A program made the translations under genes and the position numbers. The notes below the pieces were generated by a model. That model did not search any database and had not been told where the DNA came from. It saw only the letters and a program-made list of their open reading frames with translations. From Limisphaerales bacterium (GTDB taxonomy: Bacteria; Verrucomicrobiota; Verrucomicrobiia; Limisphaerales; JACDHS01), in NCBI GenBank assembly GCA_046597605.1, contig JBKJKE010000008.1:15284-79283 (forward strand): a stretch of DNA of 64,000 nucleotides. The letters run 5' to 3'. Position 1 is the stretch's first letter. Each line of letters opens with the position of its first letter. Positions 4,232 to 55,249 of the stretch are shown piece by piece.

Positions 4232-7200
4232 TCAATCAGACTTGGGAACAAAGAAGACCCCGATATCGAGCGGAGCATTTGGGACATTTGTCTTCTCCGT
4301 TTCCACCGTGAATTTAGAACTCGATCCGCCTTGCACGAAAAGTTGATATTCTCCGGGCAAGACATCTGGAATCTCAAAGGTGCCGTCTGGATGTGGTTTC
4401 AAATTGCCTCGGAAGTAAAGCTCTCCCAAATCGCTATTCTGAAATTCGATCCATGCCTTCCAATCATTTTCGTCTCCGCGTCCTCCGACGTGTGGAGCTG
4501 TCGGGTGAAAATTCATCATCACGCCTTCCCAGGAGCTACGTCCATCGAGACGTCCTTTGACGGTCCTTCCGCGTCCGCCTAAAATGATTTTGGTAGGCAC
4601 CCCGCTTGTAACGTCGACATGGGCGAACATCCCAGGGAGAACAACTCCGGTGCTTCCCTTGCCAGGCATACTCAAAGTGAAAGGCAATGAGACCTGGGTC
4701 CGCCCGGGTAGAAGTTTCTCAATTACGAATCGACCCTTTAAATCCGTGCCCGCTTTCGCGTATTGGTGAACAACCCCGGATTCGGCATAATCCCGATAGG
4801 TCAAAAGGGAAACTTCTTCGTTAGCGCCCGCTTTATCTTTCCAGACAACTTCGCCTTCGATTCTCCCCCACGCCTGCAGATGAATCTCCCGCATCTGTTG
4901 AAATTCAGAAAAAAGCATTTCTCGCACCCCGCTGTCATGCACGATCAGCGCCACTGCGGTGGGATCGTTTAAGTCTGGTGCAGAGAAACCCCCTTCCGCA
5001 TCGGTCTGAACAAAGAGGGGCCGGCGCCATTGGTCCTGTGGTTTGTCCTCCGGTGGATCTTTGAATCCCCTCAGTTTGCCATGATCAAGCACGGCATCGC
5101 GATGACTCATGGCCAGCGCCAGAGTCGCTCCAGAAGCCGGCATTCCGTCCGGTGTCAAAACACGACCTCGGATACCAGGGTCCTCGACAAGCACAATTGA
5201 GAAGGCCTTCGCCCCGTCACTTTTCTTGAACACGACTGTAGAGGCAGGACGATAGCCATCTGCTTCGACTCTAATGGACATTTCCTCGTAGCCTCGGTCC
5301 AGGGGCCAGTCGAATAAACCGTTGGTGCCGAAACGCAGCGTGTGGGGTTGCCAATTTATGATCCCGTCCGGACTCTCGGGGCGTCTTTTAAGACTGCCTG
5401 CAAGCACACGAAAAACCGGCATCGGTCCTTCTTTACTAAAAACCTTGAGGCGAATGGAATTGGTAAAAGCTGGAATGCCGCTTTCGGGTTCAACCCGCAC
5501 CGGTGCTGGCCGATTTTCGGACCGCTTTCCCAATTCTCGATCACGTGCTTTGGTTTGCCGTTGCAACCGGAAATCTGCCGTGGCCTTTTTGCCATCAACG
5601 ATAAACTCCAACGGAGTGTTTGTTTTATAACCGGGTGCCCAGGCCGTTAGATCCGGCGGATCAAAGCGAGTAGGCCTCGAACTTTTGTACCAGGTCCATT
5701 GAGTTTGGAATACGTAGCGACCTGCCGTGTCACTTGAAGCCTCGTGAATTTCACCGGGTGGATCGATTCGAAGGGTGCCTTTGACTTGCGCTCCAGGAAT
5801 CGGTTTTCCCGTTTTGTCGTCGATCACGGTGCCGCTAACGGCGAGGGGAGGGCCTGCTGTGGTGAGGTAAACTTCTCCTTCGGTCGAAGCCTTCATCTTA
5901 AATGGCAGCGGCGCGGCGAGTCCCACGAGTAAACCCACGATTACGAAAATCGCCGTTGTTCCCAGCCAGATCCGGCGTCGAAGTGGGCTCAGATCCAGCG
6001 GGAAAAACCAAGGCGTGCTGAGTAAAATCGGGGTCGCTATCAGCGCAACGAAACTCAGTAGAAGCAGCGCAAGCGGGAATTCCATTTGAAATCCCAGACC
6101 GACGCTGAAGAAGGCAGTAATGAGCGTAACGGCATAGGCAGCGCGAAATCGTTTAACAAGTCCCAGGGCCAATAACATCTTCAGTGACACATCCACCAAA
6201 AGACCTGGCCAATCTTTACCGTTCATTCCTACCATTACCAACTCGCACAAAGCACTCACCATCAGAGCAAATGCCGAAACCCATAGAATTTTCGGTCTTC
6301 CTTTAGGCGCTGCTCCGGAAGCGGTGCTCGACTGCCGCGACAACGGGGGAGGGGGACAGGGTGTTGTTCCCTGTGTATTCTCCCCAGGGGTGGAGGCGAT
6401 CGTTTCCACCTCGGTTTTGAACACACTCGCTTGCGAGTATCGCCGGTCCGGATTTTTCTCCAAAGCGCGCAGCACCACTTCATCCAGACGAACATCGATT
6501 TGTACTTTTCGAGAAGGAGGTTCCACTTGTTTGCCGGGCAACTCACCGGTGAGCATCTGATAGAAAACCACGCCGAGGGCATAGATATCGGATCGATGAT
6601 CCACTTCCAATGGTCTGTCTCTCTGTTCCGGAGACATGTAGCTGGGTGTCCCCATGACCGTGCCGCCATCAGTCAAAGGGGTGCCGGCTGGGTGGTGAGT
6701 TCCGTCGGTGGCCCCGTCAGGAACGCCGACCAACTTCGCCAATCCGAAATCGGCCACCTTTACGCGGCCTCTTCTATCCAATAAAATGTTCTCGGGTTTG
6801 ATGTCGCGATGAACAATGCCGTGGTCGTGCGCAAACTGCAGTGCATCGCAAATCTGGGGAACGATTGCCAATGCTTCCCGAGGGGAGACGCGCCCCGCAT
6901 CCAGCAATTCGCGCAGGTTCAAACCATCAACGAATTCCATCAGGAAGAAGAAGAGGCCATCGGCCCGGCCAAATTCATGGATGGTAACGATTCCAGGATG
7001 ATTCAGTTTGGCGAGTGCCTTTGCCTCTCGGGCGAACCTTTCTGCAAATGCGGGGGCGTCACTGATACCCGGTGGGAGGATTTTCAGTGCAACGATCCTA
7101 TCGAGATCTTTTTGCCTCGCCTTATAAACGGCACCCATCCCACCGCGTCCCAGTAACTCGATAATTTCAAGGTGCGGAAATTTCGAAGCCAGCTCGGCTG

Positions 7201-7381
7201 GCGTCGGTGGTGGTAGATTGGGCGCCTTTGCTTTCGTTGAACCAGGCTCTCCACTGAAATCAGTCTGACTCGCCATATTCATCGCCATCACGCACCGAGG
7301 ACACAACCCGGCCGGGGCGTTTGGCGGAAGAGGGGTACCGCACTGGGGACAAATCGGGCGAGTTGAGCTCATACCATTCAA
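4232..7381 (-). CDS. Membrane Ser/Thr protein kinase with N-terminal zinc ribbon and C-terminal beta-sandwich sensor region
   Basis: CPQCG..CPRC ribbon. Hanks motifs GRGGMGAVYKA, VALK, HRDIKPENILL, DFGLAK, SYMSPEQ. A block of TM helices mid-protein. C-terminal carboxypeptidase-regulatory-like segments (VSGTVIDDKTGKPIPGAQV, IRGRVLTPDGMPASGATL). Confidence 0.9.
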   Translation of the reverse strand: MNGMSSTRPICPQCGTPLPPNAPAGLCPRCVMAMNMASQTDFSGEPGSTKAKAPNLPPPTPAELASKFPHLEIIELLGRGGMGAVYKARQKDLDRIVALKILPPGISDAPAFAERFAREAKALAKLNHPGIVTIHEFGRADGLFFFLMEFVDGLNLRELLDAGRVSPREALAIVPQICDALQFAHDHGIVHRDIKPENILLDRRGRVKVADFGLAKLVGVPDGATDGTHHPAGTPLTDGGTVMGTPSYMSPEQRDRPLEVDHRSDIYALGVVFYQMLTGELPGKQVEPPSRKVQIDVRLDEVVLRALEKNPDRRYSQASVFKTEVETIASTPGENTQGTTPCPPPPLSRQSSTASGAAPKGRPKILWVSAFALMVSALCELVMVGMNGKDWPGLLVDVSLKMLLALGLVKRFRAAYAVTLITAFFSVGLGFQMEFPLALLLLSFVALIATPILLSTPWFFPLDLSPLRRRIWLGTTAIFVIVGLLVGLAAPLPFKMKASTEGEVYLTTAGPPLAVSGTVIDDKTGKPIPGAQVKGTLRIDPPGEIHEASSDTAGRYVFQTQWTWYKSSRPTRFDPPDLTAWAPGYKTNTPLEFIVDGKKATADFRLQRQTKARDRELGKRSENRPAPVRVEPESGIPAFTNSIRLKVFSKEGPMPVFRVLAGSLKRRPESPDGIINWQPHTLRFGTNGLFDWPLDRGYEEMSIRVEADGYRPASTVVFKKSDGAKAFSIVLVEDPGIRGRVLTPDGMPASGATLALAMSHRDAVLDHGKLRGFKDPPEDKPQDQWRRPLFVQTDAEGGFSAPDLNDPTAVALIVHDSGVREMLFSEFQQMREIHLQAWGRIEGEVVWKDKAGANEEVSLLTYRDYAESGVVHQYAKAGTDLKGRFVIEKLLPGRTQVSLPFTLSMPGKGSTGVVLPGMFAHVDVTSGVPTKIILGGRGRTVKGRLDGRSSWEGVMMNFHPTAPHVGGRGDENDWKAWIEFQNSDLGELYFRGNLKPHPDGTFEIPDVLPGEYQLFVQGGSSSKFTVETEKTNVPNAPLDIGVFFVPKSD

Positions 7382-7577: not shown

Positions 7578-7925
7578 TCGGTCGGCAAACCAATCCGACG
7601 GACTCTTTTCAGGATCCGAAATATACCCTGTCGGCTCCAACAACGTCTTTTTAAGACCGGAAAAGTACTATGTCGGACCTGACAGGGTCGTTTCAAGGAC
7701 CTGAAACGTAATATGTCAGCCCCGACAGGCCCGTTTTAGAACCTGAAATGTCGTATGTCGGCTCCGATGGAGCCATTTCAGAATCCGAAATCTACTATGT
7801 CGGCCCTGACAATGGTCGTTTTAGAAACTGAAATCTGCTCTGTCAGGCCCGACCGGCTCGATTTAGAAGCAATTGATGACCATGTCGGACGTGCCAGAAC
7901 AGGCTCAGGATCCAGCTGGGCGTGC
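7578..7925. repeat. Tandem array 1: about 8 degenerate 42-43 bp hairpin units
   Basis: TGTC(G/A)G anchors at 7629, 7671, 7714, 7756, 7798, 7841 and 7883, spaced 42 or 43 bp. Units carry TGTCGG-N3-(C)TGACA and GTTTCA-N6-TGAAAC inverted repeats (perfect at 7690-7707). Confidence 0.85.
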
Positions 7926-7965: not shown

Positions 7966-10900
7966 TCACTTTTCCACTGCGGGACTGGTTGTGACGAATT
8001 GTTCGCCTTCTGTGTTTCCCACCCTCCTTGGCCAGGAGACTTGGGCGGAGGCTGGGTTGGACAATGTGTGATTGATGTGTTTCAAACCTTCTCTTCCCGA
8101 CACCACGCACGCAGGCGCATTGTCGAAGTTAATATGCAGCTGCCCATCGATTGGACGAGGCTCCCCACTGCTCAAGTCTCGAAGGCTGCGGAAAGTTGCC
8201 AGGGCTCGAGGCAAAACCGGCGAGTATTGTATACTCATACTCGCGTAGGAAATCCTGGAATCCGCGAGCAACCGGCTTAGTTCCCCGGCAAACTCATGCT
8301 CAAAGCGGGCGCGTGTTTTCTCTGCCCGGTCGATCATCGTGGCGACATACACGCTGCCGAGCACCACGACAAAACCGGACACAATGATCGCAATGCCCGC
8401 CCAGTGGTGACGCCTAAGGGGCGCAGTGTTATCAGCTACCGGGTCCTGAGCTCGAGTCAGGCTGGAGCAAATTTTCCGGATCAGGAATACATTCAGGGGC
8501 AACATGACGAGCATTGCCTCTATAGGGCCCACCTTGAACGCAGTCGCTATGGCAACGAGAAGCGCATCCAAAGTTAACAAGGGAAAAAGCAGCGAACCGA
8601 ACAGAGCCAGAGGCAATCCGGACAAATGTCCCCGAGAGTGCCGGATCTGGGAGAGGGCAATGAAGCCTAAGAGAGTCGTTCCTAAGACGGCGCTTACGCC
8701 CACGATGGTGAGCGACAGCAGTATGCCATTCACCAGGTCGTGCCCCAAAGACCTCCGGAGATCAATCGCAGCAGACAGTCCAAAGGGCGACCAGAGAACT
8801 ACCGTGAGCAAGAAACAGAAAGCCCACGCGGCACCAAGAATTGCGCTACGAGAAAGACGAGGATGCGCTCTCTGATCTGAACTGCATGCAAACCGGGAGT
8901 CACTTCGGCATATCCAAATTGCACCCATCATCAGGCCGAGAAATGTTGCAAGGGCGGCGACAATAGAATTTGGCTTCGGCCTGTTAGAAACAGTGGGCGC
9001 TTCGGTCGCGGTTGGCTGGTTTGGACGGATCCCATCGGAGTTTATCGCTGCCTTGTTGGCCTCCAGTTCCGCCAGTTTGTAGCGGAAGACAATTCCCCGA
9101 GGTTGTGCACTGAGGCCAAGGATCTGCAGAATTCCATAGTTGGTTTGAGCGGTCTTGAAGAGGTAGGTGGCCGGAAATTGCCCCGTGCCGATCAAGGACA
9201 TAGTGTCGGCCTTCTCGAGGGTGAGTTGTTGCCGAACAAGGTAGGAAGGGAGATTGGTCCAGGAGGCAGTGGGGGTTGCAATAACAGAACGACAGAGGGC
9301 CACCAGTCTAGGAGCCTCCATGCTAAGGTCGGGCAATAGATCGATCCCGCTCTTGAGCCATTGCGATTGTTCGTGGCGAATTCTCTCCAAGGTTTTGGTT
9401 TGGTTAGTGACAGTAAAATCCGGGGGCGATGCCATGCGACCGGTGTCCAGATCGTATCCATCGTCTCGGGCCGACTCCGCGTTCACGGTCGCCGTTCGAA
9501 TCGGACCGAAGCCTGGCAGAGTGGAATCGCTATCTTCGTCCTCTACAATTACTCGGTTGAGATGGAAGAGGATTTGATCCGAAAGCTGCTGAGCGAGATC
9601 CCCCGTGATCTGCAGCCTTCCCATTGGGATCTCGGAGTTGACGACCGGTGCCGTCAACACGGCATTATCAAACAAAATCGCAATCTGCTGGTTTATGTGC
9701 TCTCGGGTTATTTGAGCGAACAGATCTTTTCCTGTTTCCGTGAGGATCAACTCAATCTCCGGCCTTTCGGTGACCTGATTCTTGGTGAGAAAAGCCGCCG
9801 CAACAGATGTTTCATCCATCAACATCTGTGGGCGTAGCCGCAGTTTGTGCGTGGCAGTTCGGGGATCGCTGAATTCTTCGAGTATGCCCTTGTCAGACTG
9901 TTCAGCGACCAGCCGAAATTGCAGTCGTTGACGGTTCGGTATTTCCGTTTTGCCCGGTGGGACTTTATCTCGCGAGATCTGTTCCCGATCAGACGCGGGT
10001 TTATAGGGCGCGTCCTTGTATTCCGGATAGCGACGTTCGCGAGCATCGCTGTAAACAACACCAAAACGATTCGCAAACCACATGGCTTCCTCCGCAGTGC
10101 CTGGATTATGAACGACTTGTTCGACAAAATCTTCCGTGGGGTCTGAACCTTTCTTCCATTGCAGTCGGACGATGACGGTGGTTCCGGTGGCGTCGTATAC
10201 ACGTGTGTCCCAACGCTGCGGGTTACCTGTGCCCAGAGGTGTGCTGGCGAGAAGCGAGCCATCCGGGCGAAAAAGATCCACACCAAGAACGAGTTCCTGC
10301 GGGCCGCTCTCTGAATTAATCCCCATACCGAGGAACCGGGCATGGAAGCGGTAGCCTACCGCATTGGTCTGAATGAAGGTGTGTTCATCTTTGGTTTTTA
10401 ACCAGGTCTGGTATTCAGGCATGCGCCGCACGTCGGCCAGAAAGGATTTCGGATCGGGATAAGAGACTTGGCTCCCATCCCAGGCTAGGGTCAAGGTAAC
10501 AGTGGGATACAGTGACCTGCGCTCCGCAATATTTTTGTTCGCCGCCTGATTCACCAACTTGTACTGCACCTTTACACCAGCAGGGCTTTCGGAAAATCCA
10601 CCGATCTGCAGAAGTCCGCGATTCCCCGACACTGTCCGAAAAGCAAAAAGTTCAGGAGAACTCAGCCCGGTAATTTTATAGGATCGAAACCCGTGCTTTA
10701 CACTTGGATCCGCCAGGGTGAGGTGATTAGTCCCGTCGTTAAGGGCCGAATCAATGTCCTCGACTGTGACCTTTTCCCATTCTACGCCGGTAATCGAAGC
10801 AAGCTTCAGCGGAGTCCATAGGTCCCATTGCTTCTTATGACTGAATGCCAATAGATCAATTCCGTGCTCCGCAGACCATTGGATCAGGACATCCTCACCT

Positions 10901-12666
10901 TGTTTTTCCAAATCGGTGGGCACTTCAACTTCTTTGCCTTCATCCATGTCGTACCCCTTGATCGGGCGTTGGGTGGAAAACGAATACAGCACGTGTTTAA
11001 TTGAAGCCGTGAACGGAGCTGGGTGAGTGCTTTTGCTTGAAGCATCGGTTTTAGTGCGGGTATGGAAAATAACTTTTCCAATGATATCAGTCGCCTGAAC
11101 AGCCTGATTGGCCTCACCGCTCCGCGCCACCTCCAGGACTCCTTGGGTCGGACCAGCACTGATCGCGCGCCCCAGCCACACCTGTCCGTTACGCCGAAAC
11201 GCCACGATATCTCGTTCTTCGAATTGTTTACTGAGCCGGTTTGCAATGACGTAACTACCCTTTGGAATTTCTGGATCGACTGCGTCCGTTTTGAGACGAA
11301 GGGGAGCAATCACCATCAGGAGCGCAACCGCGATCAAGGCTGCAAGTGGCAGTTCCCAGATCAACGATCTAATGTGGTTGATCCATCCATTGCGCATCCT
11401 GCGCCCGATCCTTGCAGCGATGCTGCTCTCTGGTGAAAGCGGGGCCTGCAACGGCCAGCCACCATTTGGATTTTTTTTGGCCATATGCCATGCCATCAGG
11501 CTCATCAGCCAGGCGAGAATACCGCAGGCAATCAACATCCCCAGACCCGCATTCCGATTATCGTCTCGCCAATGGACCAGCGCCGCCACGACTCCGATGG
11601 CGGCCATTGCGAAACTGATATTGCCCCAGAGGAGTTCCGGGTGAGCCACAACTCTCTTCTGGAAAGTTTGACTTGGGGTAGAAGAGACAGTTTCGACATC
11701 GGCCTTCAGGCCGCTTGCCTGGGCATAACGGCGTTCCGGAGTTTTCTCCAATGCCCGCAGAACGATCTCATCCAATCGAACATCGATATGCACCTTTTTG
11801 GAAGGAGCCTGTATCTGCTTGCCCGGCAGTTCGCCCGTGAGCATTTGGTAGAACACGACACCAAGTGCATAAATGTCGGCGCGGTGATCTACTTCGGTCG
11901 GACGATCCCGTTGTTCGGGTGCCATGTAGTGGGGCGTGCCCAGGACCCCAGTGACGCTTTGCTCTGATGCGGCACCTGAAGCGGACTCAGCCCCCATTTG
12001 TCCCACAATCTTTGCCACACCGAAATCGGCCACCTTCACGCGGCCTTGACGGTCGAGCAGGATGTTCTCCGGCTTAATGTCGCGATGGACAACTCCGTGG
12101 TCGTGAGCGTATTGCAACGCGTCGCAAATCTGGGGAACAATGGCGAGGGCTTCGCGTGCACTGATCCGCCCCCCGTTAAGTAACTGGCGGAGATTCACCC
12201 CATCAACAAACTCCATCAGGAAGAAGAAGAGTTCCTCGGTTTCACCAAACTCGTAAAGGGTGACGATCCCCGGATGGTTCAAGTTCGCGAGTGCTTGAGC
12301 CTCGCGGGTAAAGCGTGCTGCAAAAGTTATGTGGTCACCTATTCCAGGCGGAAGGATTTTTAACGCCACGAGACGTCCGAGTTTCTTCTGTCGGGCTTTG
12401 TAAACTGCACCCATTCCTCCGCGGCCGATGAGTTCAATAATTTCCAACTGCGGAAAACGAGCGGCGAGTTCCTCGGGAGCCGGTGGAACGAATGCGCCGG
12501 CTTCTGCCTGGGCAGCACATTCTTGTGAATCGGTAGGAAATCCCGCTTTGAGCAAGCATTCCTGGCAAAGGCCTTTGGGCGCAGTAGGCGTTAAAGCTTT
12601 TCCGCAGCTGGGGCATTGAGGCGTTGTATTCATTCTCTTACCCACTTCTTCGGGAAAGCCGGGCAA
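7966..12666 (-). CDS. Giant multidomain membrane Ser/Thr protein kinase (zinc ribbon, kinase, S26-like segment, SecD-P1-like segment, polytopic C-terminus)
   Basis: CPSCG..CQEC ribbon. The kinase core is nearly identical in motif order to the downstream kinase (GRGGMGAVYKA, HRDIKPENILL, DFGVAK, HYMAPEQ). TM helices. A LepB-like stretch (SYVIANRL..DIVAFRRNGQVWLGRA..IIGKVIF). A SecD head-like stretch (IAILFDNAVLTAPVVNSEIPMGRLQITG). The C-terminal ~400 aa are polytopic. The start may be ATG 12633 (MNTTPQCPSCG). Confidence 0.9.
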   Translation of the reverse strand: MPGFPEEVGKRMNTTPQCPSCGKALTPTAPKGLCQECLLKAGFPTDSQECAAQAEAGAFVPPAPEELAARFPQLEIIELIGRGGMGAVYKARQKKLGRLVALKILPPGIGDHITFAARFTREAQALANLNHPGIVTLYEFGETEELFFFLMEFVDGVNLRQLLNGGRISAREALAIVPQICDALQYAHDHGVVHRDIKPENILLDRQGRVKVADFGVAKIVGQMGAESASGAASEQSVTGVLGTPHYMAPEQRDRPTEVDHRADIYALGVVFYQMLTGELPGKQIQAPSKKVHIDVRLDEIVLRALEKTPERRYAQASGLKADVETVSSTPSQTFQKRVVAHPELLWGNISFAMAAIGVVAALVHWRDDNRNAGLGMLIACGILAWLMSLMAWHMAKKNPNGGWPLQAPLSPESSIAARIGRRMRNGWINHIRSLIWELPLAALIAVALLMVIAPLRLKTDAVDPEIPKGSYVIANRLSKQFEERDIVAFRRNGQVWLGRAISAGPTQGVLEVARSGEANQAVQATDIIGKVIFHTRTKTDASSKSTHPAPFTASIKHVLYSFSTQRPIKGYDMDEGKEVEVPTDLEKQGEDVLIQWSAEHGIDLLAFSHKKQWDLWTPLKLASITGVEWEKVTVEDIDSALNDGTNHLTLADPSVKHGFRSYKITGLSSPELFAFRTVSGNRGLLQIGGFSESPAGVKVQYKLVNQAANKNIAERRSLYPTVTLTLAWDGSQVSYPDPKSFLADVRRMPEYQTWLKTKDEHTFIQTNAVGYRFHARFLGMGINSESGPQELVLGVDLFRPDGSLLASTPLGTGNPQRWDTRVYDATGTTVIVRLQWKKGSDPTEDFVEQVVHNPGTAEEAMWFANRFGVVYSDARERRYPEYKDAPYKPASDREQISRDKVPPGKTEIPNRQRLQFRLVAEQSDKGILEEFSDPRTATHKLRLRPQMLMDETSVAAAFLTKNQVTERPEIELILTETGKDLFAQITREHINQQIAILFDNAVLTAPVVNSEIPMGRLQITGDLAQQLSDQILFHLNRVIVEDEDSDSTLPGFGPIRTATVNAESARDDGYDLDTGRMASPPDFTVTNQTKTLERIRHEQSQWLKSGIDLLPDLSMEAPRLVALCRSVIATPTASWTNLPSYLVRQQLTLEKADTMSLIGTGQFPATYLFKTAQTNYGILQILGLSAQPRGIVFRYKLAELEANKAAINSDGIRPNQPTATEAPTVSNRPKPNSIVAALATFLGLMMGAIWICRSDSRFACSSDQRAHPRLSRSAILGAAWAFCFLLTVVLWSPFGLSAAIDLRRSLGHDLVNGILLSLTIVGVSAVLGTTLLGFIALSQIRHSRGHLSGLPLALFGSLLFPLLTLDALLVAIATAFKVGPIEAMLVMLPLNVFLIRKICSSLTRAQDPVADNTAPLRRHHWAGIAIIVSGFVVVLGSVYVATMIDRAEKTRARFEHEFAGELSRLLADSRISYASMSIQYSPVLPRALATFRSLRDLSSGEPRPIDGQLHINFDNAPACVVSGREGLKHINHTLSNPASAQVSWPRRVGNTEGEQFVTTSPAVEK

Positions 12667-12691: not shown

Positions 12692-13447
12692 TCATTTCCC
12701 CGCGACTACTCCCATCAGATAGCGCAATTCTTCCTTCACTTCTTCCGGGGTCGCAACGGTATTGGCTATCTCGGATTCAAGCAGCTCGCGATAACGTTTC
12801 CGCAAACGGTGGACCGCAGTTTTTACAGCGCCTTCGCTTAAACCGAGTTCGGAGGCCAACGCCGCATAAGGCTGAGATTCTCTTGAACCAGTAAGCGTTT
12901 GCTTCAAGACGACGAATTGGCGCCTCTTTTCTTCGCCGCGGAATTCACCCTCCAGTCGATTTAATACTTTATCCAACAACGCAGTCGCCCATTCACGGTC
13001 GAAGGCTCTATCCACATTCGTCGGATCAGCAGGTTCGAGATCAAAACGTTCTTCGGCCATTGCCAGATCCAGCGAAAGAATTTGTCGGCCACCGCCGCGT
13101 TTTTGCGTCTGCAATTTTGCCCATTCGTCAGCGAGGAAATGGTTCATGGCACCAAGCATGTAGGAACGAAAGCGTCCACGGTCCCGATCCACATTGGCAA
13201 GTGATTGTCGCTCCAGGAGGCACGCAAAGAACGATTGCGTCAGATCCTGCGCATCATGCGGGGAATAGCCACGTCGGCGAACGTAGGCATACAGCGGATA
13301 CCAATAGGTTTGGCACAATTTCTCCAGGGCCATCCCCGCACGGATGGTGTCGGTTCGCCCCGCCGCCAGGACAACGCTCCAGTGCGTCGTCGCAAAATAG
13401 CATTGAGTGCCCGCAGGTTGCCCTGAGGAAATGACGCGGGTGGCCAT
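12692..13447 (-). CDS. ECF-type RNA polymerase sigma-70 family factor
   Basis: N-terminal TTHWSVVLAA..LEKLCQTYWYPLYAYVRRRGYSPHDAQDLTQSFF (region 2). C-terminal YAALASELGLSEGAVKTAVHRLRKRYRELL (region 4 HTH). Lies 25 bp upstream of the kinase gene on the same strand, with no anti-sigma gene. Confidence 0.85.
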   Translation of the reverse strand: MATRVISSGQPAGTQCYFATTHWSVVLAAGRTDTIRAGMALEKLCQTYWYPLYAYVRRRGYSPHDAQDLTQSFFACLLERQSLANVDRDRGRFRSYMLGAMNHFLADEWAKLQTQKRGGGRQILSLDLAMAEERFDLEPADPTNVDRAFDREWATALLDKVLNRLEGEFRGEEKRRQFVVLKQTLTGSRESQPYAALASELGLSEGAVKTAVHRLRKRYRELLESEIANTVATPEEVKEELRYLMGVVAGK

Positions 13448-13582
13448 GTCTTAGTCTTACGTTTTGTCCGAGTGAAACCAAATCGAAAAGGCATTGTCGC
13501 CCACCGTTCTATCTACTACATCGGGAAAAGCAGATGGAGGTTACAATAAAATTTGTGGCAGGCGTAAATCTGATCCCACAGG

Positions 13583-14656
13583 GTGAAAGAGTTCTCCGTT
13601 GATTGGCCAGCGCGTGGCAGTTATACCAGAGGAATCGGAACATCAGCTCATGTTCCCAGGAAGATGCCTGCTCTTACTGAACTGAATGTCGTCCTTCTGG
13701 TCTTTAATCGACCGGAATTAACGGAGCGCGTTTTGGAACGGGTTCGCGACGCTCGACCGACCACTCTTCTGGTAGTTGCAGACGGACCACGCCCCGATCA
13801 TCCGGACGACATTCAAAAGTGCGCAAAGGTTCGACAGCTCATTTCAAGTCGACTGGATTGGGATGTGAGATTGTTGACCAATTATGCTGAGGCTAACATG
13901 GGTCTGCGACAGAGGGTTTCCAGCGGATTGACCTGGGTCTTCGAAAATGTGGAGCGAGCGATCATCCTCGAGGACGATTGTGTGCCCGAGCCCTCTTTCT
14001 TTCCTTTTTGTGCGGAATTGCTCGAACGTTACGCTGACGATACCCGGATCGGCGCGGTCACTGGTGACAACTATCAGCTACCTTCATTTACCTGCGAGGA
14101 AAGCTATTACTTCTCTAAATATCCGCACTGCTGGGGTTGGGCGACCTGGCGACGGGCCTGGAAACATTTTGATCGGGATATGGAACGTTGGCCTGCCTTG
14201 AAGGAGAGTGGTTTCCTCCGAAATCTATTCGATGAGCACCATGCGCTCTTCTGGGAGACGAAACTGGACCGCGTGTATCGTCGGGAAATCAATTCATGGG
14301 CATTCCCCTGGACCTTTTCTTTTTGGTCGCAAAACATGCTTTCGATCATCCCCAAAGCAAACCTCGTCACGAATGTTGGGTTCGGTGAGGCGGGAACGAA
14401 TACTAAAAGAGTCGGCAGTTTGATGTCTGAGCTTCCAACCTATCCGATGGAATTCCCGCTCCGACATCCCCAAAACGTTGTCATCAATTACCCGGCAGAT
14501 TCCTTCACCCAGGGACATATTTATAATCGGAAGCCGCCAACTCCACCTGCCCCTGTTCCAGTCGCACCCAGTGCACCGACAGTTCCTGTTCCCCCGGCTG
14601 CTTCTGAGAATGAAAGTTGGTTGAAACAGCTTTTCGGCAAAACTAGCCCAAAGTAA
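13583..14656 (+). CDS. GT2-like (HlpA/GNT-I-like) glycosyltransferase with Pro-rich C-terminal tail
   Basis: LNVVLLVFNRPELTERVLE..LLVVADGPRPD..AIILEDDCVPEPSFF..YPHCWGWATWRRAW. 13583 is GTG; ATG 13664 (MPALTELNVV) is the more likely start. Confidence 0.65.
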   Translation: MKEFSVDWPARGSYTRGIGTSAHVPRKMPALTELNVVLLVFNRPELTERVLERVRDARPTTLLVVADGPRPDHPDDIQKCAKVRQLISSRLDWDVRLLTNYAEANMGLRQRVSSGLTWVFENVERAIILEDDCVPEPSFFPFCAELLERYADDTRIGAVTGDNYQLPSFTCEESYYFSKYPHCWGWATWRRAWKHFDRDMERWPALKESGFLRNLFDEHHALFWETKLDRVYRREINSWAFPWTFSFWSQNMLSIIPKANLVTNVGFGEAGTNTKRVGSLMSELPTYPMEFPLRHPQNVVINYPADSFTQGHIYNRKPPTPPAPVPVAPSAPTVPVPPAASENESWLKQLFGKTSPK

Positions 14657-14659
14657 CGG

Positions 14660-14975
14660 GGTCGATTCTTTGTGAAGTAAACCCCACAATGCGCGTATTA
14701 CGCTATCGATTCGTTTCGAAGTGACCCCACAATACGGGTATTACGGTGTCGAATCGTTTCGAAGTGACCCCACAATACGGGTATTGCGGTATCGATTCAT
14801 TTCAAAGTGATCCCACAATACGGGTATTGCGGTATCGAATCGTTTCAAAGTGACCCCACAATACGAGTATTGTGGTATCGAATCGTTTCGAAGGGACCCC
14901 ACAATATGGGTATTGCGGTATTGAATCGTTTCGATGTGACCCCACAATACGCAGAGTACCGGGGTTGATTCACCC
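14660..14975. repeat. Tandem array 2: 7 copies of a 43-bp double-hairpin unit
   Basis: CCCACAAT anchors at 14683, 14726, 14769, 14812, 14855, 14898 and 14941, exactly 43 bp apart. Unit palindrome CCACAATAC-GR-GTATTGYGG (perfect at 14856-14875), plus TCGAA-TCGT-TTCGA. Confidence 0.95.
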
Positions 14976-15036
14976 ATGAACGGCCTTGTTCCAGCATTGA
15001 CAATGCGGTTTCAACCGTGACAAGTAACGCCGGTTT

Positions 15037-15780
15037 ATGAGTCAACTCGCCAATCAAGTTGCTGTTGTGACAGGTGCCGGACGTGGAATCGGCCGGGCTA
15101 TCGCGTTAAAGTTCGCGCAGGAAGGTGCGGACGTCGTATGCGTTTCCCGCACCGTTGAGAATTCCGAAAAAGTGGCTGCCGAAATCCGCGCCCTTGGTCG
15201 CAAAGCATGGGCTTTTGCGGTGGATGTCTCGGATGCAGCCGCAGTGGCCGCCGCGGGCGAAAAGATTCTGACTGAGGCGGGCCGGGTGGATATCCTGGTG
15301 AACAACGCCGGCGTGACCAAAGATGGATTGCTCATGCGAATGAGTGAGGCTGACTGGGATGTGGTCTTGAACACCAACCTCAAGGGAGCCTTTTCCTTCA
15401 CCAAGGCCTTTACCCGCGCTTTTGCCAAACAGCGTTCGGGACGTATCATCAATATCAGTTCAGTCATTGGTTTGATGGGCAATGCGGGTCAATGCAATTA
15501 TGCGGCGAGTAAGGCTGGTTTGATTGGATTCACCAAATCGATTGCCCGTGAACTGGCTTCCCGTGGCGTGACTTGCAATGCCATTGCTCCCGGGTTTATT
15601 GAGACCGACATGACCAGTGTCTTGAATGAAGAGATGCGTAATGGTTTACTGAAACAGATCCCTTTGAACTCTTTCGGTAACGCTGAGGACATCGCTAATG
15701 CGACGCTCTTTCTCGCTACTTCAGGGGCACGCTATATCACTGGACAGGTGCTGACAGTGGATGGTGGAATGGTAATGTGA
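15037..15780 (+). CDS. fabG: 3-oxoacyl-[ACP] reductase
   Basis: SDR motifs TGAGRGIGRAIA, NNAG, and the S-x12-Y-x3-K triad (SSVIG..YAASKAG). Full-length FabG-like protein directly upstream of acpP-fabF. Confidence 0.95.
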   Translation: MSQLANQVAVVTGAGRGIGRAIALKFAQEGADVVCVSRTVENSEKVAAEIRALGRKAWAFAVDVSDAAAVAAAGEKILTEAGRVDILVNNAGVTKDGLLMRMSEADWDVVLNTNLKGAFSFTKAFTRAFAKQRSGRIINISSVIGLMGNAGQCNYAASKAGLIGFTKSIARELASRGVTCNAIAPGFIETDMTSVLNEEMRNGLLKQIPLNSFGNAEDIANATLFLATSGARYITGQVLTVDGGMVM

Positions 15781-15989
15781 CCTCGCATTTCGACACACGG
15801 ATCCAGATAAGTCGGCAAGGCTGTGGAAATTCCCTCTCGACACGCCAGAGGGTTGTCGTTAGGGATGGATGGGCGGAGCGAAGTGAGTTGCGCTCCAAAA
15901 TAAATTTTCAGTAGAAAAAAATTACAGAAACAGAACTTGACGCCTCGTTCTTACGTGGCATAGAGACAACCAACAAAACGGAGAAACCC

Positions 15990-16235
15990 ATGGCAGAAAA
16001 AACAATTGAACAGAGAGTAAAAGATATCATCGTCGAGCAACTCGGCGTGAATCCTGATCAGGTCACCCCTGACGCAAAATTTATTGAAGACCTCGGTGCT
16101 GACTCCCTCGACACCGTGGAATTGGTCATGGCTCTGGAAGAAGAATTCGGCAACGAAATTCCTGACGAACAGGCCGAGAAACTGCAGAGCGTCGGCGATG
16201 TCATCAAATTCATCGAAGACCAGCAGTCTAAGTAA
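15990..16235 (+). CDS. acpP: Acyl carrier protein
   Basis: 81 aa with the phosphopantetheine site [24 protein letters not shown] Shine-Dalgarno about 8 nt upstream of the ATG. Confidence 0.97.
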
Positions 16236-16252
16236 CGGAAGAGATAATTTGC

Positions 16253-16292
16253 GGGGCAGCAAGCTTTCGTGCATGCTGCCCCTTTAGTTTTT
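16253..16292 (+). terminator. Hairpin plus T-run between acpP and fabF (attenuator or partial terminator)
   Basis: GGGGCAGCA-12 nt-TGCTGCCCC followed by tttagttttt. It ends immediately before ATG 16293. Confidence 0.6.
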
Positions 16293-17552
16293 ATGGCAAG
16301 TAACTGGACAGAACGTCGCGTCGTTATCACTGGCTTGGGATTGGTCGGCCCGCTTGGGTCCGACGTGGAAACTTTTTGGAAGAACGTTGTTTGTGGCCAA
16401 TGCGGTATCGACAGGATCTCACACTTTGATGCTTCGCAGTTCGACTGCCAAATCGCCGCGGAAGTCCGCGGTTTCGATCCGACCCCTGCTTTCCCTTCGC
16501 CAAAAGAGATCCGACGCACAGACCGTTTTGCCCAGCTGGGAGTCCATGCTGGTTGGCAGGCTTTGCTCGATTCCGGTCTGGACCTGGAAAAAGTGAACCG
16601 GGACGAGATTGGTTGCTTTATTGGCTCCGGGATCGGCGGGCTGCAAACCACCGAAGAACAACACAAAGTTTACCTGCAAAAGGGTCCGGGACGCATTTCG
16701 CCCTTCATGATTCCGATGCTCATTCTGAACATGGCTTCCGGCCTGTTCTCAATGTATTACAAACTGCGCGGTCCGAACGTTTCAACCTGCTCCGCTTGCG
16801 CAACTTCCACTCATGCAATCGGTGAAGCCTGGCGGACCATCAAGATGGGCGATGCCTCGGTCATGTTCGCCGGAGGCAGTGAAGCGACGATTGTTCCCCT
16901 CGGCATCGGTGGTTTCTGCGCGATGCGCGCGATGAGCACCCGCAATGACGAACCCAAAAAGGCCTCGCGTCCTTTCGATGTCGGTCGTGACGGTTTCGTG
17001 ATGGGAGAAGGAGCCGGAGTCCTGGTTCTCGAAGAGCTGGAACACGCCAAAGCGCGTGGTGCTAGAATTTATTGCGAATTGCTCGGATACGGAAATACCG
17101 CAGACGCAAACCACATGACCGCACCCTCTCCCGAAGGAGAAGGCGCCGCGCGTTGTATGAAGATGGCACTGCGCAATGCTGGGTTGAATCCTACTGATGT
17201 TTCCTACATCAACGCGCACGGAACATCTACGCCCCAGGGTGACATTGCGGAAACCCAGGCGATCAAAACGGTTTTCGGCGATCACGCTCGCAAGCTTGCG
17301 GTCAGCTCGACCAAAGGTGCCACGGGTCACATGCTGGGCGCGGCTGGCGCGGCCGAGATGGTGCTCTGTGTTAAAGCAATTCAGCAGCAGATCGCCCCGC
17401 CTACGATCAACCTCGATAATCCAGATCCGCTCTGCGATCTCGACTATGTGCCACACACGGCACGTGAAATGAAGATCGATGCCGTGGTGAATAACTCGTT
17501 CGGATTCGGTGGCCACAATGCCACGATCGTCGCCCGAAAATTTGTTGGTTAA
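16293..17552 (+). CDS. fabF: Beta-ketoacyl-[ACP] synthase II
   Basis: RVVITGLG, active-site [41 protein letters not shown]. The track start at 16269 lies inside the upstream hairpin, so ATG 16293 (MASNW) is preferred. Confidence 0.95.
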
Positions 17553-30465: not shown

Positions 30466-30920
30466 CGCGACACCAGAGCGCGCTACAAGTCGTTGCAGGT
30501 CCCGAGGAGCACATGAAACCTGCGTTACAGGCCGCTGCGGATCCCGCGAGCACATGAAACCTGCGTTTCCGGTCGCTGCGGATCCCGCGAGCACATGAAA
30601 CCTGCGTTACAGGTCGCTGCGGATCCCGCGAGCACGTGAAACCTGCGTTACAGGTCGCTGCGGATCCCGCGAGCACGTGAAACCTGCGTTACAGGCCGCT
30701 GCGGATCCCGCGAGCACATGAAACCTGCGTTTCAGGCCGTTGCGGGTCCCGCGAGCACATGAAACCTGCGTTTCAGGCCGCTGCGGATCCCGCGAGCACG
30801 TGAAACCTGCGTTTCAGGCCGCTGCGGATCCCGCGAGCACGTGAAACCTGCGTTTCAGGCCGTTGCGGATCCCGCGAGCACGTGAAAACCTGCGTTTCAG
30901 GTCGTTGCGCGCGGGGAAAT
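30466..30920. repeat. Tandem array 3: about 11 copies of a 41-bp hairpin unit
   Basis: GAGCAC anchors at 30507, 30548, 30589, 30630, 30671, 30712, 30753, 30794, 30835 and 30876, exactly 41 bp apart. Unit GAGCAC(A/G)TGAAACCTGCGTT(A/T)CAGG(C/T)CG(C/T)TGCGGATCCCGC with hairpin TGAAAC-CTGC-GTTTCA (for example 30719-30734) and GCGG-ATC-CCGC. Confidence 0.97.
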
Positions 30921-31081
30921 GAACTGTAACACGCGTCACAGGTGCTCCTTGAGAAGGCATCTGAACATTTTTTACGGTGCAAACCGATGGGGGAATTGTA
31001 ACCTGTTCCCTTGCTTTTCCCGTCTTGAGAGAATGCGGTTGGTTTCGAACCAACCCGGGAATCAGTCGATTAATTGCTGAA

Positions 31082-38665: not shown

Positions 38666-39640
38666 GTGAGTGATGATGTGCGCGACGGTGAAGTTCAAGA
38701 CGAGTGGATTGCCAGTTTCCTACAGCACCTTGCCACAGATCGCGGCGCCTCGATTTTTACCCAGCGCAATTACCGCGAGGCTCTCACTGAGTTTTTCTGT
38801 TTTTACCGAGAGGAGCGGAAGACCTCTCCTGATTGGAAAACCTTACAACGCGACGATTTCCGGGCCTATCTTCGTTTTCTGGGTCGCGGCGGGCGGAGTC
38901 GCGCTTCCATCCAACTTCGATTTAGCGCGTTCCGTACATTTTACAAGTTCATGATCCGGCGCGGACATGTGGTTTCAACGCCGATTAAAAACATCCTGCT
39001 TCCGAAACCGGAGAGGCGGTTGCCGAAATTCCTGACCGCAGATCAAATGCTGGCGCTTCTGCATGCTCCTTTGAAGAAGTATGAAGAACTTAGCAAAGTC
39101 GCCCAGGAAAAGAGCGGCAGAAAAATCGACTCTGCTCCCTACTATCGTGATGTGGCTATCCTGGAAACCATTTACTCCTGCGGATTGCGTATCAGTGAAC
39201 TCTGCGGCCTGCTGGCAGAGGATATCGACTGGAGCGAATACTCTGTGCGCGTGCGCGGAAAGGGAAAGAAAGAGCGGGTCGTTCCCATTGGAGAACCTGC
39301 CATGAAATCCATTCAAGTTTACTGGCAAAAATTGCCTGCATTTCCCAAGGGAGAAGCGCCTGCGTTTTATGCTGATTTCGAAAAGGCCGCACCCGTTTAC
39401 CCTCGATCGATTCAACAAAATTTGAAGACCTACCTCGAACAGGCGGGCCTGGACCCGGGGCTGACCCCGCACAAGTTGCGTCACAGTTATGCTACCCACC
39501 TTCTCAATGCTGGAGCGGACTTGCGCAGTGTGCAGGAGTTATTGGGCCACGCCCATCTGGTCACGACGCAGATTTATACACATGTCACGATCGATAGACT
39601 GAAGCAGGCTTATGAAGGCGCGCATCCGCGAGCGAAATAA
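38666..39640 (+). CDS. Tyrosine recombinase, XerC/XerD type
   Basis: N-terminal SAM-like core-binding domain (FLQHLATDRGASIFTQRNYREAL). Catalytic residues in context: GLRISEL, GKGKKERVVP, HKLRHSYATHLL, LLGHAHLVTTQIYTHV. Confidence 0.9.
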   Translation: MSDDVRDGEVQDEWIASFLQHLATDRGASIFTQRNYREALTEFFCFYREERKTSPDWKTLQRDDFRAYLRFLGRGGRSRASIQLRFSAFRTFYKFMIRRGHVVSTPIKNILLPKPERRLPKFLTADQMLALLHAPLKKYEELSKVAQEKSGRKIDSAPYYRDVAILETIYSCGLRISELCGLLAEDIDWSEYSVRVRGKGKKERVVPIGEPAMKSIQVYWQKLPAFPKGEAPAFYADFEKAAPVYPRSIQQNLKTYLEQAGLDPGLTPHKLRHSYATHLLNAGADLRSVQELLGHAHLVTTQIYTHVTIDRLKQAYEGAHPRAK

Positions 39641-39689: not shown

Positions 39690-39772
<83 letters not shown>

Positions 39773-43025: not shown

Positions 43026-43033
43026 AGAGCGAG

Positions 43034-54899: not shown

Positions 54900-55130
54900 A
54901 CAGCACCTGTAACGCGCGTTACAGCCCGTTGCGAGACTTGCGAGCACCTGTAACGGCCGTAACGGGTCGTCGCCAGACTTTCCGGCACCTGTAACGCGCG
55001 TTACGGCTCGTTGCGAGACTTGCGAGCACCTGTAACGGCCGTAACAGGTCGTCGCCAGACTTTCCGGCACCCGTAACGCGCGTTACAGCTCGTCGCGAGA
55101 CTTGCAAGCACCTGTAACGCGTGTTTCAGG
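54900..55130. repeat. Tandem array 4: 6 copies of a 41-bp unit in two alternating subtypes (82-bp higher-order period)
   Basis: GCACC anchors at 54903, 54944, 54985, 55026, 55067 and 55108, exactly 41 bp apart. Subtype A carries the perfect palindrome CTGTAACGCGCGTTACAG (54907-54924). Subtype B carries CTGTAACGGCCGTAAC(G/A)GG. Confidence 0.95.
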
Positions 55131-55134
55131 ACAA

Positions 55135-55249
55135 TTGCAGAAGCGGGTTTGGATGCTCCGAGCTGATGCTCCTGCCAGATGCGATGAATCGTGTTCTTAC
55201 TGACTTTTTGGGCCCGGCCAGTGGGCGTGTGCTCCAATGTGTTGAACAT
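55135..55249 (-). pseudogene. IS630-family transposase, internal HTH remnant
   Basis: ..HTPTGRAQKVSKNTIHRIWQEHQLGASKP resembles the second HTH (..ISKSTVHRIW..HGLKPH) of IS630-type transposases. The frame then runs into array 4. Confidence 0.55.

What the first reader, a model, noticed from the sequence alone, without database searches (positions are those of the whole stretch)
14660..14975. Array 2: seven 43-bp double-hairpin units between a glycosyltransferase gene and fabG-acpP-fabF
CCCACAAT anchors are exactly 43 bp apart from 14683 to 14941. Each unit has a 9-bp-stem palindrome (CCACAATAC-GA-GTATTGTGG, perfect at 14856-14875, with compensable G/A and C/T variants in other units). Each also has a second small inverted repeat, TCGAA-TCGT-TTCGA. 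The array starts 4 bp after the glycosyltransferase stop and ends about 60 bp before fabG, directly upstream of a core fatty-acid-synthesis operon. The sequence differs from arrays 3 and 4, but the architecture is the same: a short 5' segment, a palindrome, a linker of about 16 nt, and a period of about 42 bp. It shares the core TCGTTTC(A/G)A(A/G)G with array 1.
Basis: seen in the sequence. Interest (0 to 1): 0.7.

Follow-up and report, generated by a model that had tools for sequence, protein, structure and literature searches.

The report
Palindromic 43-bp minisatellite upstream of fabG
The repeat is a real, non-coding 43-bp tandem array just upstream of the fatty-acid synthesis operon, and it belongs to a previously undescribed, clade-restricted class of ~42-bp palindrome-bearing minisatellites in a few Verrucomicrobiota genomes whose unit length is conserved while their sequence is not.

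Summary
The array is real. It has seven CCCACAAT anchors exactly 43 bp apart, six full units and degenerate edge units (14657-14981). It fills the gap between the stop codon of a GT-A-like gene and a conserved fabG core promoter/leader.

The double-hairpin description is only partly right. The 9-bp stem is perfect in one unit, and five of six units carry an A.C mismatch. There are no compensatory changes. The core shared with array 1 is at chance level.

The unit sequence was not found anywhere else: not in 81 kb of the home genome, GTDB species representatives, JGI metagenomes, IMG/VR or plasmids. No Rfam family matches. No promoter or terminator consensus is repeated inside it.

The architecture does recur. 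I found ten arrays in six genomes of a narrow Pedosphaerales-like clade (FabG at least 86% identical). All have periods of 41-43 bp, and at least eight unit sequences are unrelated. Most carry one or two palindromes, and some show higher-order repeats. Five of seven clade genomes have such an array upstream of the fab operon. None was found in about 2 Mb of more distant loci.

Best reading: satellite-like palindromic minisatellites, closest in kind to pneumococcal boxB arrays, REP/BIME and BrickBuilt, acting if at all through structure rather than sequence. A selected architectural role at the fab promoter remains plausible.

The parts
14657..14680 (.). Degenerate half unit ('leader') directly after the upstream gene's stop codon
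   Evidence: Hand alignment of CGGGGTCGATTCTTTGTGAAGTAA to unit positions 19-43 with a 2-nt deletion gives 17 matches. In strict register it matches only 7/43. The repeat finder extends the family to 14640 at 65% identity.
14681..14938 (.). Six full 43-bp units, consensus ACCCCACAATACGGGTATTGCGGTATCGAATCGTTTCGAAGTG
   Evidence: TRF, unit listing and alignment A3 with 93% mean column identity.
14939..14981 (.). Degenerate terminal unit. The first 13 nt are identical to the consensus and the rest has diverged.
   Evidence: 20/43 in register. It shares CGGGGTYGATTC with the leader, consistent with edge units that escaped homogenisation.
14856..14875 (.). The only perfect copy of the large palindrome, CCACAATAC-GA-GTATTGTGG
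14878..14891 (.). Small inverted repeat TCGAA-TCGT-TTCGA. An exact copy also lies at 14749-14762.
   Evidence: Helix 2 is 86.7% paired across the units.
13664..14656 (+). Upstream gene: a GT-A/HlpA-like putative glycosyltransferase (330 aa as called in public data) with a Pro-rich C-terminal extension
   Evidence: No Pfam, NCBIfam or PDB hit. Homologues are named glycosyltransferase family 2 / family A / HlpA-like. Most homologues cover only about 75-85% of the query.
14988..15036 (+). Conserved fabG core promoter/leader segment (TTCCAGCATTGACAA...TGACAAGTAACG...ATG). The array ends just upstream of it.
   Evidence: Nearly identical segment in L002, and a related double motif in L004, L166 and L167. 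Its function as a promoter is inferred.
15037..15780 (+). fabG (3-oxoacyl-ACP reductase)
   Evidence: Pfam adh_short, 3.9e-66.
15990..16235 (+). acpP
   Evidence: Pfam PP-binding.
16269..17552 (+). fabF (beta-ketoacyl-ACP synthase)
   Evidence: Pfam ketoacyl-synt N and C domains.
7592..7868 (.). Sister array W1: 42-bp period, about 6 units, 70% matches, lying between two minus-strand Ser/Thr kinase genes
30480..30950 (.). Sister array W3: 41-bp period, about 10 units, 95% matches, capped by one inverted W4-type unit. It lies between divergent NAPRTase and AcrB genes.
54901..55135 (.). Sister array W4: 41-bp period with an 82-bp higher-order repeat. It is homologous to W3.
   Evidence: (z = 5.2).

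Best explanation
Array 2 is one locus of a lineage-restricted family of non-coding, palindrome-bearing minisatellites with a unit of about 42 bp.

These arrays behave like satellite DNA:
- Units are homogenised within a locus by slippage or unequal exchange. This preserves the period while the sequence drifts.
- Edge units decay.
- Multi-unit higher-order repeats arise.
- Whole arrays are occasionally copied to new loci.

The palindromes are probably what lets the units keep expanding, through hairpin-assisted slippage. They also give the DNA, and any read-through RNA, a hairpin- or cruciform-prone character.

At this locus the array is a roughly 325-bp structured spacer between the stop codon of a GT-A-like gene and the conserved fabG core promoter. 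Any effect on fabG-acpP-fabF would be structural and independent of sequence: spacing or insulating the promoter from upstream transcription and supercoiling. It is not a specific RNA gene, riboswitch, terminator or operator.

Shown: the array, its anatomy, the lack of covariation, uniqueness of its sequence, recurrence of the architecture and period in relatives, and the satellite-like signatures.
Inferred: the expansion mechanism, common descent of the period, and any insulating effect.
For: - Real array with exact 43-bp spacing.
- The 41- and 43-bp periods are not multiples of 3, so they are not coding repeats.
- No Rfam family matches, even at E<=1.
- No repeated promoter or terminator consensus.
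- No compensatory pairs, and the main stem is mismatched in 5 of 6 units.
- Unit sequence absent from GTDB representatives, JGI metagenomes, IMG/VR, plasmids and the rest of 81 kb of home genome.
- Ten arrays in six clade genomes, all with period 41-43 bp.
- Unit consensuses are mutually unrelated except W3/W4.
- None in about 2 Mb of loci from organisms with FabG <=83% identical.
- Satellite signatures: degenerate edges; higher-order repeats of 82, 84/126 and 123 bp; inter-unit identity ranging from 63 to 95%.
- Dispersal of the same family to two loci: W3/W4, and the two L002 arrays with an 83-bp shared tail.
- Third-codon identity of fabG among clade members is only 44-54%. Neutral sequence is therefore saturated, and unrelated unit sequences are expected even for orthologous arrays.
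- Palindromes are enriched over shuffles in most families.
- Arrays occur in co-directional (tandem), divergent and convergent gene contexts.
Against: - Five of seven clade genomes carry an array upstream of the fab operon although the upstream neighbour differs in each. That is far more than the background density of roughly one array per 35-40 kb predicts. It argues for either long persistence under selection or a local hotspot.
- A purely neutral array should be lost easily by contraction.
- The narrow 41-43 bp range (four helical turns) across unrelated sequences could reflect a functional or mechanistic ruler rather than inheritance.
- One compensatory stem change separates W3 from W4 (TGAAAC/GTTTCA versus TGTAAC/GTTACA).
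- The genome-wide census and expression data are missing.
Confidence: 0.55

Rival explanations
1. Selected architectural cis-element of the fab promoter, and of other promoters. A helically phased array (about 4 turns per unit) of cruciform-prone palindromes would be recognised by a structure-specific nucleoid protein, or would act as a supercoil buffer or insulator upstream of a very strongly transcribed operon. The period and hairpin potential would be under selection, and the sequence would not.
For: - An array lies upstream of the fab operon in 5 of 7 clade genomes, despite different upstream neighbours and saturated neutral divergence.
- The array ends immediately upstream of the conserved core promoter segment.
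- All periods are 41-43 bp.
- Palindromes are retained in at least 6 unrelated families.
- One compensatory change separates W3 from W4.
Against: - Two clade genomes (L002, L168) lack an array upstream of fabG.
- The distance to fabG varies from about 55 to about 380 bp.
- Arrays also lie between convergent genes (W4).
- Palindromes decay in older arrays: W1, L167, and the A.C mismatch in 5 of 6 W2 units.
- The positions of the two palindromes within the unit are not constant.
- No candidate binding protein has been identified.
Confidence: 0.25
2. Structured RNA element. The array would be transcribed, as the 3' UTR of the upstream gene or as its own transcript. Its tandem hairpins would then stabilise, terminate or insulate transcripts, or sponge an RNA-binding protein, as proposed for REP/BIME and BOX.
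For: - No intrinsic terminator separates the upstream gene from the array, so read-through is likely.
- The whole array folds somewhat better than shuffles: z = -3.1 on the + strand and z = -4.5 on the - strand.
- BOX and REP elements are reported to form RNA stem-loops (PMC3049150, PMC3733652).
Against: - No covariation.
- On the sense (+) strand the hairpins are disrupted by A.C mismatches in most units. The better-folding strand is antisense to both flanking genes.
- Pooled wobble asymmetry across arrays is nil, 29 versus 28.
- The trimer of the W2 consensus folds no better than shuffles, z = -0.4.
- No Rfam match.
- No U-tracts after the stems.
Confidence: 0.1
3. REP/BIME- or MITE-type mobile element. 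The units would be recognised and multiplied by a dedicated transposase (a RAYT or IS200/IS605-like enzyme acting on hairpins, or a MITE with an internal minisatellite such as BOX or BrickBuilt). The arrays would be insertion products rather than local slippage products.
For: - Imperfect palindromes of REP-like size.
- Family-specific sequences that differ between genomes.
- The same family at two loci: W3/W4, and L002a/b with an 83-bp shared tail in inverted orientation.
- An inverted terminal unit at the end of W3.
- A 19-bp direct repeat flanking the L004 array.
Against: - No GTAG or CGTC tag next to the stems (criteria from PMC3733652).
- Strict head-to-tail arrangement, which is rare for REPs (PMC3733652).
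- No solo or dispersed copies of the W1 or W2 units in the window.
- No Y1 transposase among the window's genes.
- The W2 leader and tail are just degenerate units, not terminal inverted repeats.
Confidence: 0.1
4. Degenerate or spacer-less CRISPR array.
For: The repeats have partial dyad symmetry, and the unit size falls within the range of CRISPR repeat-plus-short-spacer lengths.
Against: - The entire 43-bp unit is repeated at 89-93% identity, so there are no unique spacers.
- No cas genes among the window's annotated genes.
- Four such arrays with three unrelated unit sequences occur within 64 kb.
Confidence: 0.01

Closest known systems
Pneumococcal BOX elements (tandem boxB modules between boxA and boxC)
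   Same: - Intergenic and non-coding.
- A short module repeated head-to-tail in variable number.
- Predicted stem-loops.
- Found next to promoters, with reported positive or negative effects on neighbouring genes.
- Module number changes by slippage or unequal crossover (PMC3049150).
   Different: - BOX has conserved boxA and boxC terminal modules with inverted-repeat character, and one sequence family per genome at more than 100 loci.
- Here the ends are only degenerate units.
- Each locus has essentially its own sequence.
- Only the period is shared.
REP / BIME (repetitive extragenic palindromes; GTAG and CGTC superfamilies; RAYT-associated)
   Same: - Imperfect extragenic palindromes with stems of 6-9 bp.
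- Species-specific sequences, sometimes clustered and reiterated in tandem.
- Proposed roles in supercoiling, termination and mRNA stability (PMC3733652).
   Different: - No GTAG or CGTC tag.
- Strict head-to-tail orientation with a fixed 41-43 bp period, whereas BIMEs alternate in orientation.
- No dispersed single copies seen.
- No RAYT seen in the window.
BrickBuilt MITE/minisatellite of Porphyromonas gingivalis
   Same: - A species-restricted intergenic minisatellite without spacers.
- Multiple loci per genome.
- Leader and tail segments.
- Possible influence on neighbouring transcription (PMC4596501).
   Different: - BrickBuilt has a 23-nt unit and one conserved sequence family with inverted-repeat ends and promoter elements.
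- Here the unit is about 42 bp, the sequences are unrelated between loci, and no promoter consensus is repeated.
Eukaryotic-style satellite/minisatellite DNA evolving by concerted evolution (own knowledge)
   Same: - Period conserved while sequence turns over.
- Higher-order repeats.
- Degenerate array edges.
- Locus-specific homogenisation.
   Different: These are tiny arrays of 3.5-10 units in a compact bacterial genome, and each unit carries palindromes.
Mycobacterial MIRU/VNTR loci (own knowledge)
   Same: Intergenic tandem repeats of about 40-100 bp inside or next to operons.
   Different: MIRUs are sequence-related across loci and are proposed to carry small coupling ORFs. Copy-number polymorphism has not been tested here.

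Membership tests
CRISPR array | Direct repeats separated by unique spacers of similar length | tested here: not met
   Units are contiguous. The whole 43-bp unit is repeated at 89-93% identity.
CRISPR array | cas genes in the neighbourhood | tested here: not met
   Pfam scan of most predicted genes (about 47 of 57 ORFs) in the 64-kb window found no Cas families. The rest of the genome is not testable.
REP/BIME | Imperfect palindrome of 20-40 bp in extragenic DNA | tested here: met
   A 20-nt imperfect palindrome in each unit, perfect at 14856-14875.
REP/BIME | Conserved GTAG or CGTC tetranucleotide at one foot of the stem | tested here: not met
   The unit has GTGAC before the stem and no GTAG or CGTC. 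Candidate tags in the sister arrays are not conserved between units (criteria from PMC3733652).
REP/BIME | Many dispersed copies per genome, single or in alternating orientation | tested here: inconclusive
   No other copy in the 64-kb window at up to 3 mismatches. No new arrays by TRF in the ~17 kb of flanking home sequence. All copies are head-to-tail. The whole genome was not available.
REP/BIME | Associated RAYT (Y1 transposase) gene | not testable with these tools
   None found in the window. The rest of the home genome could not be read.
BOX / BrickBuilt-type MITE with internal minisatellite | Distinct terminal modules with inverted-repeat ends flanking the tandem module | tested here: not met
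   The leader and tail of array 2 are degenerate units. The only flanking inverted repeat is a 15-nt match (13 of 15 complementary), whose perfect 9-nt core is at chance level by my own estimate (about 0.4 expected in a 450-nt region). An 83-bp shared tail exists for the L002 arrays, and W3 has an inverted cap unit.
BOX / BrickBuilt-type MITE with internal minisatellite | Same element at many loci in one genome | tested here: inconclusive
   W3/W4 and L002a/b show two-locus families. Array 2's unit was seen at one locus only.
Intrinsic terminator (array) | GC-rich stem followed by a U-tract | tested here: not met
   No terminator-like site in 13400-16400 apart from one at 13489-13502 on the minus strand.
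Known structured RNA family (Rfam) | Covariance-model match at or near the gathering score | tested here: not met
   The only hit in the window at gathering score is tRNA. The best hit in the array at E<=1 is TEG147, at 19.7 bits against a gathering score of 56.1.
Structured RNA (any) | Compensatory base changes maintaining the stems | tested here: not met
   0 of 14 pairs changed on both sides, and the covariation score does not exceed shuffles. Power is low because the units are recent copies.
Iteron/operator array | Cognate binding-protein gene adjacent, and the same site conserved in orthologous promoters | tested here: not met
   Arrays upstream of fabG in relatives have unrelated palindromes. 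No regulator gene is adjacent.
VNTR/minisatellite | Head-to-tail non-coding repeats of 10-100 bp | tested here: met
VNTR/minisatellite | Copy-number polymorphism between strains | not testable with these tools
   The only second assembly of the same organism breaks inside the array.

The most novel reading that the evidence does not exclude
The 41-43 bp period, not the sequence, is the selected or mechanistically imposed feature. This clade would have a system that either builds arrays in units of about four helical turns with a molecular ruler, or reads phased hairpin/cruciform arrays with a structure-specific protein. An ancient copy would be kept upstream of the fab operon as an architectural promoter element. 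That would be a sequence-free, period-defined class of bacterial cis-element.
Probability: 0.15. Interest if true: 0.8.

Novelty: new variant of a known kind. Interest (0 to 1): 0.5.

Why it matters
If the reading holds, a small group of soil and freshwater Verrucomicrobiota carries bacterial satellite DNA with a fixed unit length of about four helical turns, two palindromes per unit and essentially free sequence. A copy sits repeatedly upstream of the essential fatty-acid synthesis operon.

That would give a tractable case for three questions:
- How minisatellites are born, homogenised and retained in compact genomes.
- Whether period and hairpin potential alone can be selected.
- Whether such arrays insulate or tune strong promoters.

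There is also a practical point. These arrays break short-read assemblies. Three Logan contigs here end at or near them, so they are under-represented in metagenome-assembled genomes and easy to misannotate as small ORFs or CRISPR-like arrays.

Tried and rejected
- **Exact-pattern scans for array 2.** A 25-specified-base pattern that matches 5 of the 7 units found nothing in GTDB species genomes, JGI metagenomes or IMG/VR. A W3/W4 pattern found nothing in IMG/VR. blastn against plasmids found nothing.
- **Rfam.** Nothing at gathering score or at E<=1.
- **Promoter and terminator scans of all four arrays.** No repeated consensus.
- **Covariation within array 2.** None.
- **Strand-of-function inference from G.U versus A.C asymmetry.** Array 2 favours the minus strand, but pooled counts are 29 versus 28 and the events are not independent. 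Rejected as evidence.
- **Homology between array 1 and array 2.** Chance level.
- **Hidden degenerate arrays.** Lag autocorrelation found none beyond the TRF hits.
- **Orthologous-position test for W3.** NAPRTase relatives are only 67-69% identical and show no arrays, so the test is uninformative.
- **Aligning fabG-upstream regions of relatives.** Only the last ~55 nt align, so orthology of the arrays cannot be shown by sequence.
- **parS, FabR or other operator resemblance.** The CACGTG-core palindromes in L005 and L166 were considered. This was dropped because the palindromes differ between genomes and the operator sequences were recalled from memory only.
- **CRISPR, iteron and coding-repeat readings.** Rejected; see the membership tests.

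Full report
**1. The observation**

The sequence at 14657-14981 is a genuine tandem array. TRF reports a 43-bp period at 14681-14951, with 6.3 copies, 89% matches and score 416. CCCACAAT occurs at 14683, 14726, 14769, 14812, 14855, 14898 and 14941, exactly 43 bp apart. Five units match the 41-nt consensus within three mismatches, against none in 100 shuffles. The six full units are 93% identical column by column.

The 24 nt before the first unit and the 43 nt after the sixth are degenerate units. The array therefore starts right after the stop codon (14654-14656) of the upstream gene. It ends 55 bp before the fabG ATG (15037).

An independent Logan assembly of the same organism carries the same sequence, and its contig breaks inside the array. 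So the array is real, although its copy number may not be reliable.

fabG, acpP and fabF are confirmed by Pfam. The upstream gene has no Pfam, NCBIfam or PDB sequence match. Its homologues are named glycosyltransferase family 2 / family A / HlpA-like by their sources, so 'glycosyltransferase' is plausible.

**2. The hairpins**

The large palindrome is perfect only at 14856-14875. In five of six units the third pair is A.C, and other departures are also one-sided transitions. No pair changes on both sides, and the covariation score does not exceed shuffles.

The exact small inverted repeat occurs in two units only. As sense-strand RNA, the double hairpin forms in one or two of seven units. It forms better on the antisense strand, where A.C becomes G.U.

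The whole array folds modestly better than shuffles, with z = -3.1 on the + strand and z = -4.5 on the - strand. A trimer of the consensus unit does not (z = -0.4).

There is no Rfam match. There is no terminator or sigma-70-like consensus inside the array. The core said to be shared with array 1 is a 9-mer that 39% of random windows equal or exceed.

**3. Where else the unit occurs**

The unit sequence was found nowhere else:
- not in the window;
- no new arrays by TRF in the ~17 kb of flanking home sequence recovered from Logan contigs;
- not in GTDB species genomes, JGI metagenomes, IMG/VR or plasmids.

**4. The architecture recurs**

The window holds four arrays with periods of 42, 43, 41 and 41 bp.

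The organism is a Verrucomicrobiota bacterium related to Pedosphaera. The best GTDB FabG match is 83% identical. I fetched fabG loci from closer relatives, with FabG 86-92% identical. These contain six more arrays with periods of 41, 41, 41, 42, 41 and 41 bp.

Consensus units are mutually unrelated, except W3/W4 (z = 5.2) and the two L002 arrays. Most units carry a 16-24-nt palindrome and a smaller one. Palindromes are significantly enriched in most families but weak in W1, W2, W3 and L167.

About 2 Mb of loci from organisms with FabG <=83% identical contain no such array. The feature is therefore confined to a narrow clade.

**5. Satellite-like behaviour**

- Edge units are degenerate.
- Inter-unit identity ranges from 63 to 95%.
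- W4, L005 and L167 show higher-order repeats of 82, 84/126 and 123 bp.
- Families are occasionally copied. W3 and W4 lie 24 kb apart and differ by a compensatory A-T to T-A change in the stem, with intermediate mismatched units in W3. The two L002 arrays share an 83-bp tail and lie in inverted orientation around 9.4 kb that includes the fab operon.
- Third-codon identity of fabG among clade members is 44-54%. Neutral DNA is therefore saturated, and unrelated unit sequences are compatible with common descent. Unequal exchange would conserve the period automatically.

**6. Context**

Arrays lie in several gene contexts:
- between co-directional genes (W1, W2, L002a);
- between divergent genes (W3);
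- between convergent genes (W4).

Within the sampled regions no RAYT, cas or rep gene was found.

Five of seven clade genomes have an array within roughly 55-380 bp upstream of the fab operon. In L005 it lies upstream of an ornithine decarboxylase gene that directly precedes fabG. This holds although the upstream neighbour differs in every genome.

Only the last ~50 nt before the ATG are conserved. This segment contains a double TGACAA / TTCTGTCAA motif, and array 2 ends just upstream of it.

Outside this position I saw five arrays in about 190 kb. The fabG-upstream position is therefore strongly enriched. This is the main argument that the arrays are more than junk.

**7. Interpretation**

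I commit to the following reading with confidence 0.55. Array 2 is a member of a lineage-specific class of palindromic minisatellites of about 42 bp. They are maintained by hairpin-assisted slippage and unequal exchange, and they act, if at all, through structure rather than sequence. At this locus the array is a structured spacer between the upstream gene and the fabG promoter.

The rivals are:
- a selected, helically phased architectural promoter element (0.25);
- a structured RNA (0.1);
- a REP/RAYT- or MITE-type mobile element (0.1);
- a degenerate CRISPR array (0.01).

The shown steps are the anatomy, the uniqueness of the sequence, the lack of covariation, the recurrence of period and palindromes, and the satellite signatures. 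The inferred steps are the expansion mechanism, descent of the period, and any effect on transcription or supercoiling.

**8. Comparison with known elements**

The closest known kinds are:
- pneumococcal BOX elements with tandem boxB modules (PMC3049150);
- REP/BIME (PMC3733652);
- the BrickBuilt minisatellite-MITE (PMC4596501).

Array 2 fails the defining tests for each. It has no GTAG or CGTC tag, and REP clusters are rarely head-to-tail. It has no distinct terminal modules, and no multi-locus sequence family was shown for its unit.

What is new is a conserved period with free sequence across loci and genomes, together with the recurrent position upstream of the fab operon. Literature searches found no description of such arrays in Verrucomicrobia.

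**9. Verdict**

It is a new variant of a known kind (intergenic palindromic minisatellites) and of moderate interest (0.5). The interesting part is the clade-wide regularity, not this array's sequence.

Noticed in passing
window 39690-47085: The 3' 63 nt of tRNA-Phe (39690-39765) are repeated at 47025-47085 with 95% identity. The repeats bracket a ~7.3-kb integrated island. It carries a tyrosine integrase (45532-46938, minus strand), an IstB-like ATPase (43034-43855), an HTH protein (43857-44363) and lower GC content. A separate XerC/D-like recombinase (38666-39640) lies just upstream of the tRNA.
   Followed up: partly
window 54747-54819; L002 17356-17405; L005 3778-3846: A ~70-nt conserved non-coding element (GGGGAGAAAACCAGAACATATTA...TTACGTGGTGGGGTTAGGATGAG) sits at non-orthologous positions in three genomes. 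In L005 it lies between fabG and acpP. In the window it lies 80 bp upstream of array W4. Two hairpins are predicted and there is no Rfam match. It could be a small RNA or a mobile-element end.
   Followed up: partly
window 30924-30947: Array W3 ends with a single inverted unit of the W4 type (CTGTAACACGCGTCACAGGTGCTC), 15 nt after the last direct unit. This gives the whole array terminal inverted repeats and makes it look BIME- or MITE-like.
   Followed up: partly
L002 6644-7049 and 16311-16679: Two copies of the same 41-bp array plus an 83-bp tail lie in inverted orientation (92% identical). They bracket a 9.4-kb segment that contains the whole fabG-acpP-fabF-PYNP-Mg-chelatase block. This is a potential invertible or composite segment. 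The Logan contig L003 of the same organism spans only the segment between the two arrays and ends short of both.
   Followed up: partly
L004 9395-9413, 9672-9690 and about 9290 (inverted): A 19-bp motif, TTATTCCACCGAAAACGTT, flanks the L004 array as a direct repeat. A third, inverted copy lies 100 bp upstream. It could be a target duplication, an attachment-type site or a repeated operator.
   Followed up: no
window 14520-14656: The GT-A-like protein has a Pro-rich C-terminal extension of about 45 aa (…PPTPPAPVPVAPSAPTVPVPPAAS…) that appears to be missing from its homologues, most of which align to only about 75-85% of the query and are mostly ~300-330 aa long. The extension ends exactly at the array, which suggests the reading frame was extended into former intergenic DNA.
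   Followed up: partly
window 14988-15036; L002, L004, L166 and L167 just upstream of fabG: A conserved double motif lies within 45 nt of the fabG start codon across the clade: TGACAA-N14-TGACAA in the window and L002, and TTCTGTCAA-N9-TTCTGTCAA in L004, L166 and L167. It leaves almost no leader. It could be a promoter or a regulator-binding site.
   Followed up: partly
window 4232-7381 and 7966-12666: Two large paralogous Ser/Thr kinase genes on the minus strand flank array W1. They share 74-75% identical segments (12006-12324 with 6731-7048). An ECF sigma factor gene of the PF07638 type lies next to them (12692-13447).
   Followed up: no
L054 3083-3650 and 20342-20632; L073 20512-20735: Two Cohnella genomes carry non-coding-looking tandem arrays with a 51-bp period near their fabG loci. 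This unrelated case shows that lineage-specific fixed-period minisatellites may be more widespread.
   Followed up: no
L001, L170 and L003 contig ends: Short-read (Logan) contigs end inside or near these arrays. L001 starts in array 2, L170 ends at W4, and L003 covers only the region between the two L002 arrays and stops short of both. Arrays of this kind are therefore systematically lost or truncated in metagenome assemblies.
   Followed up: partly
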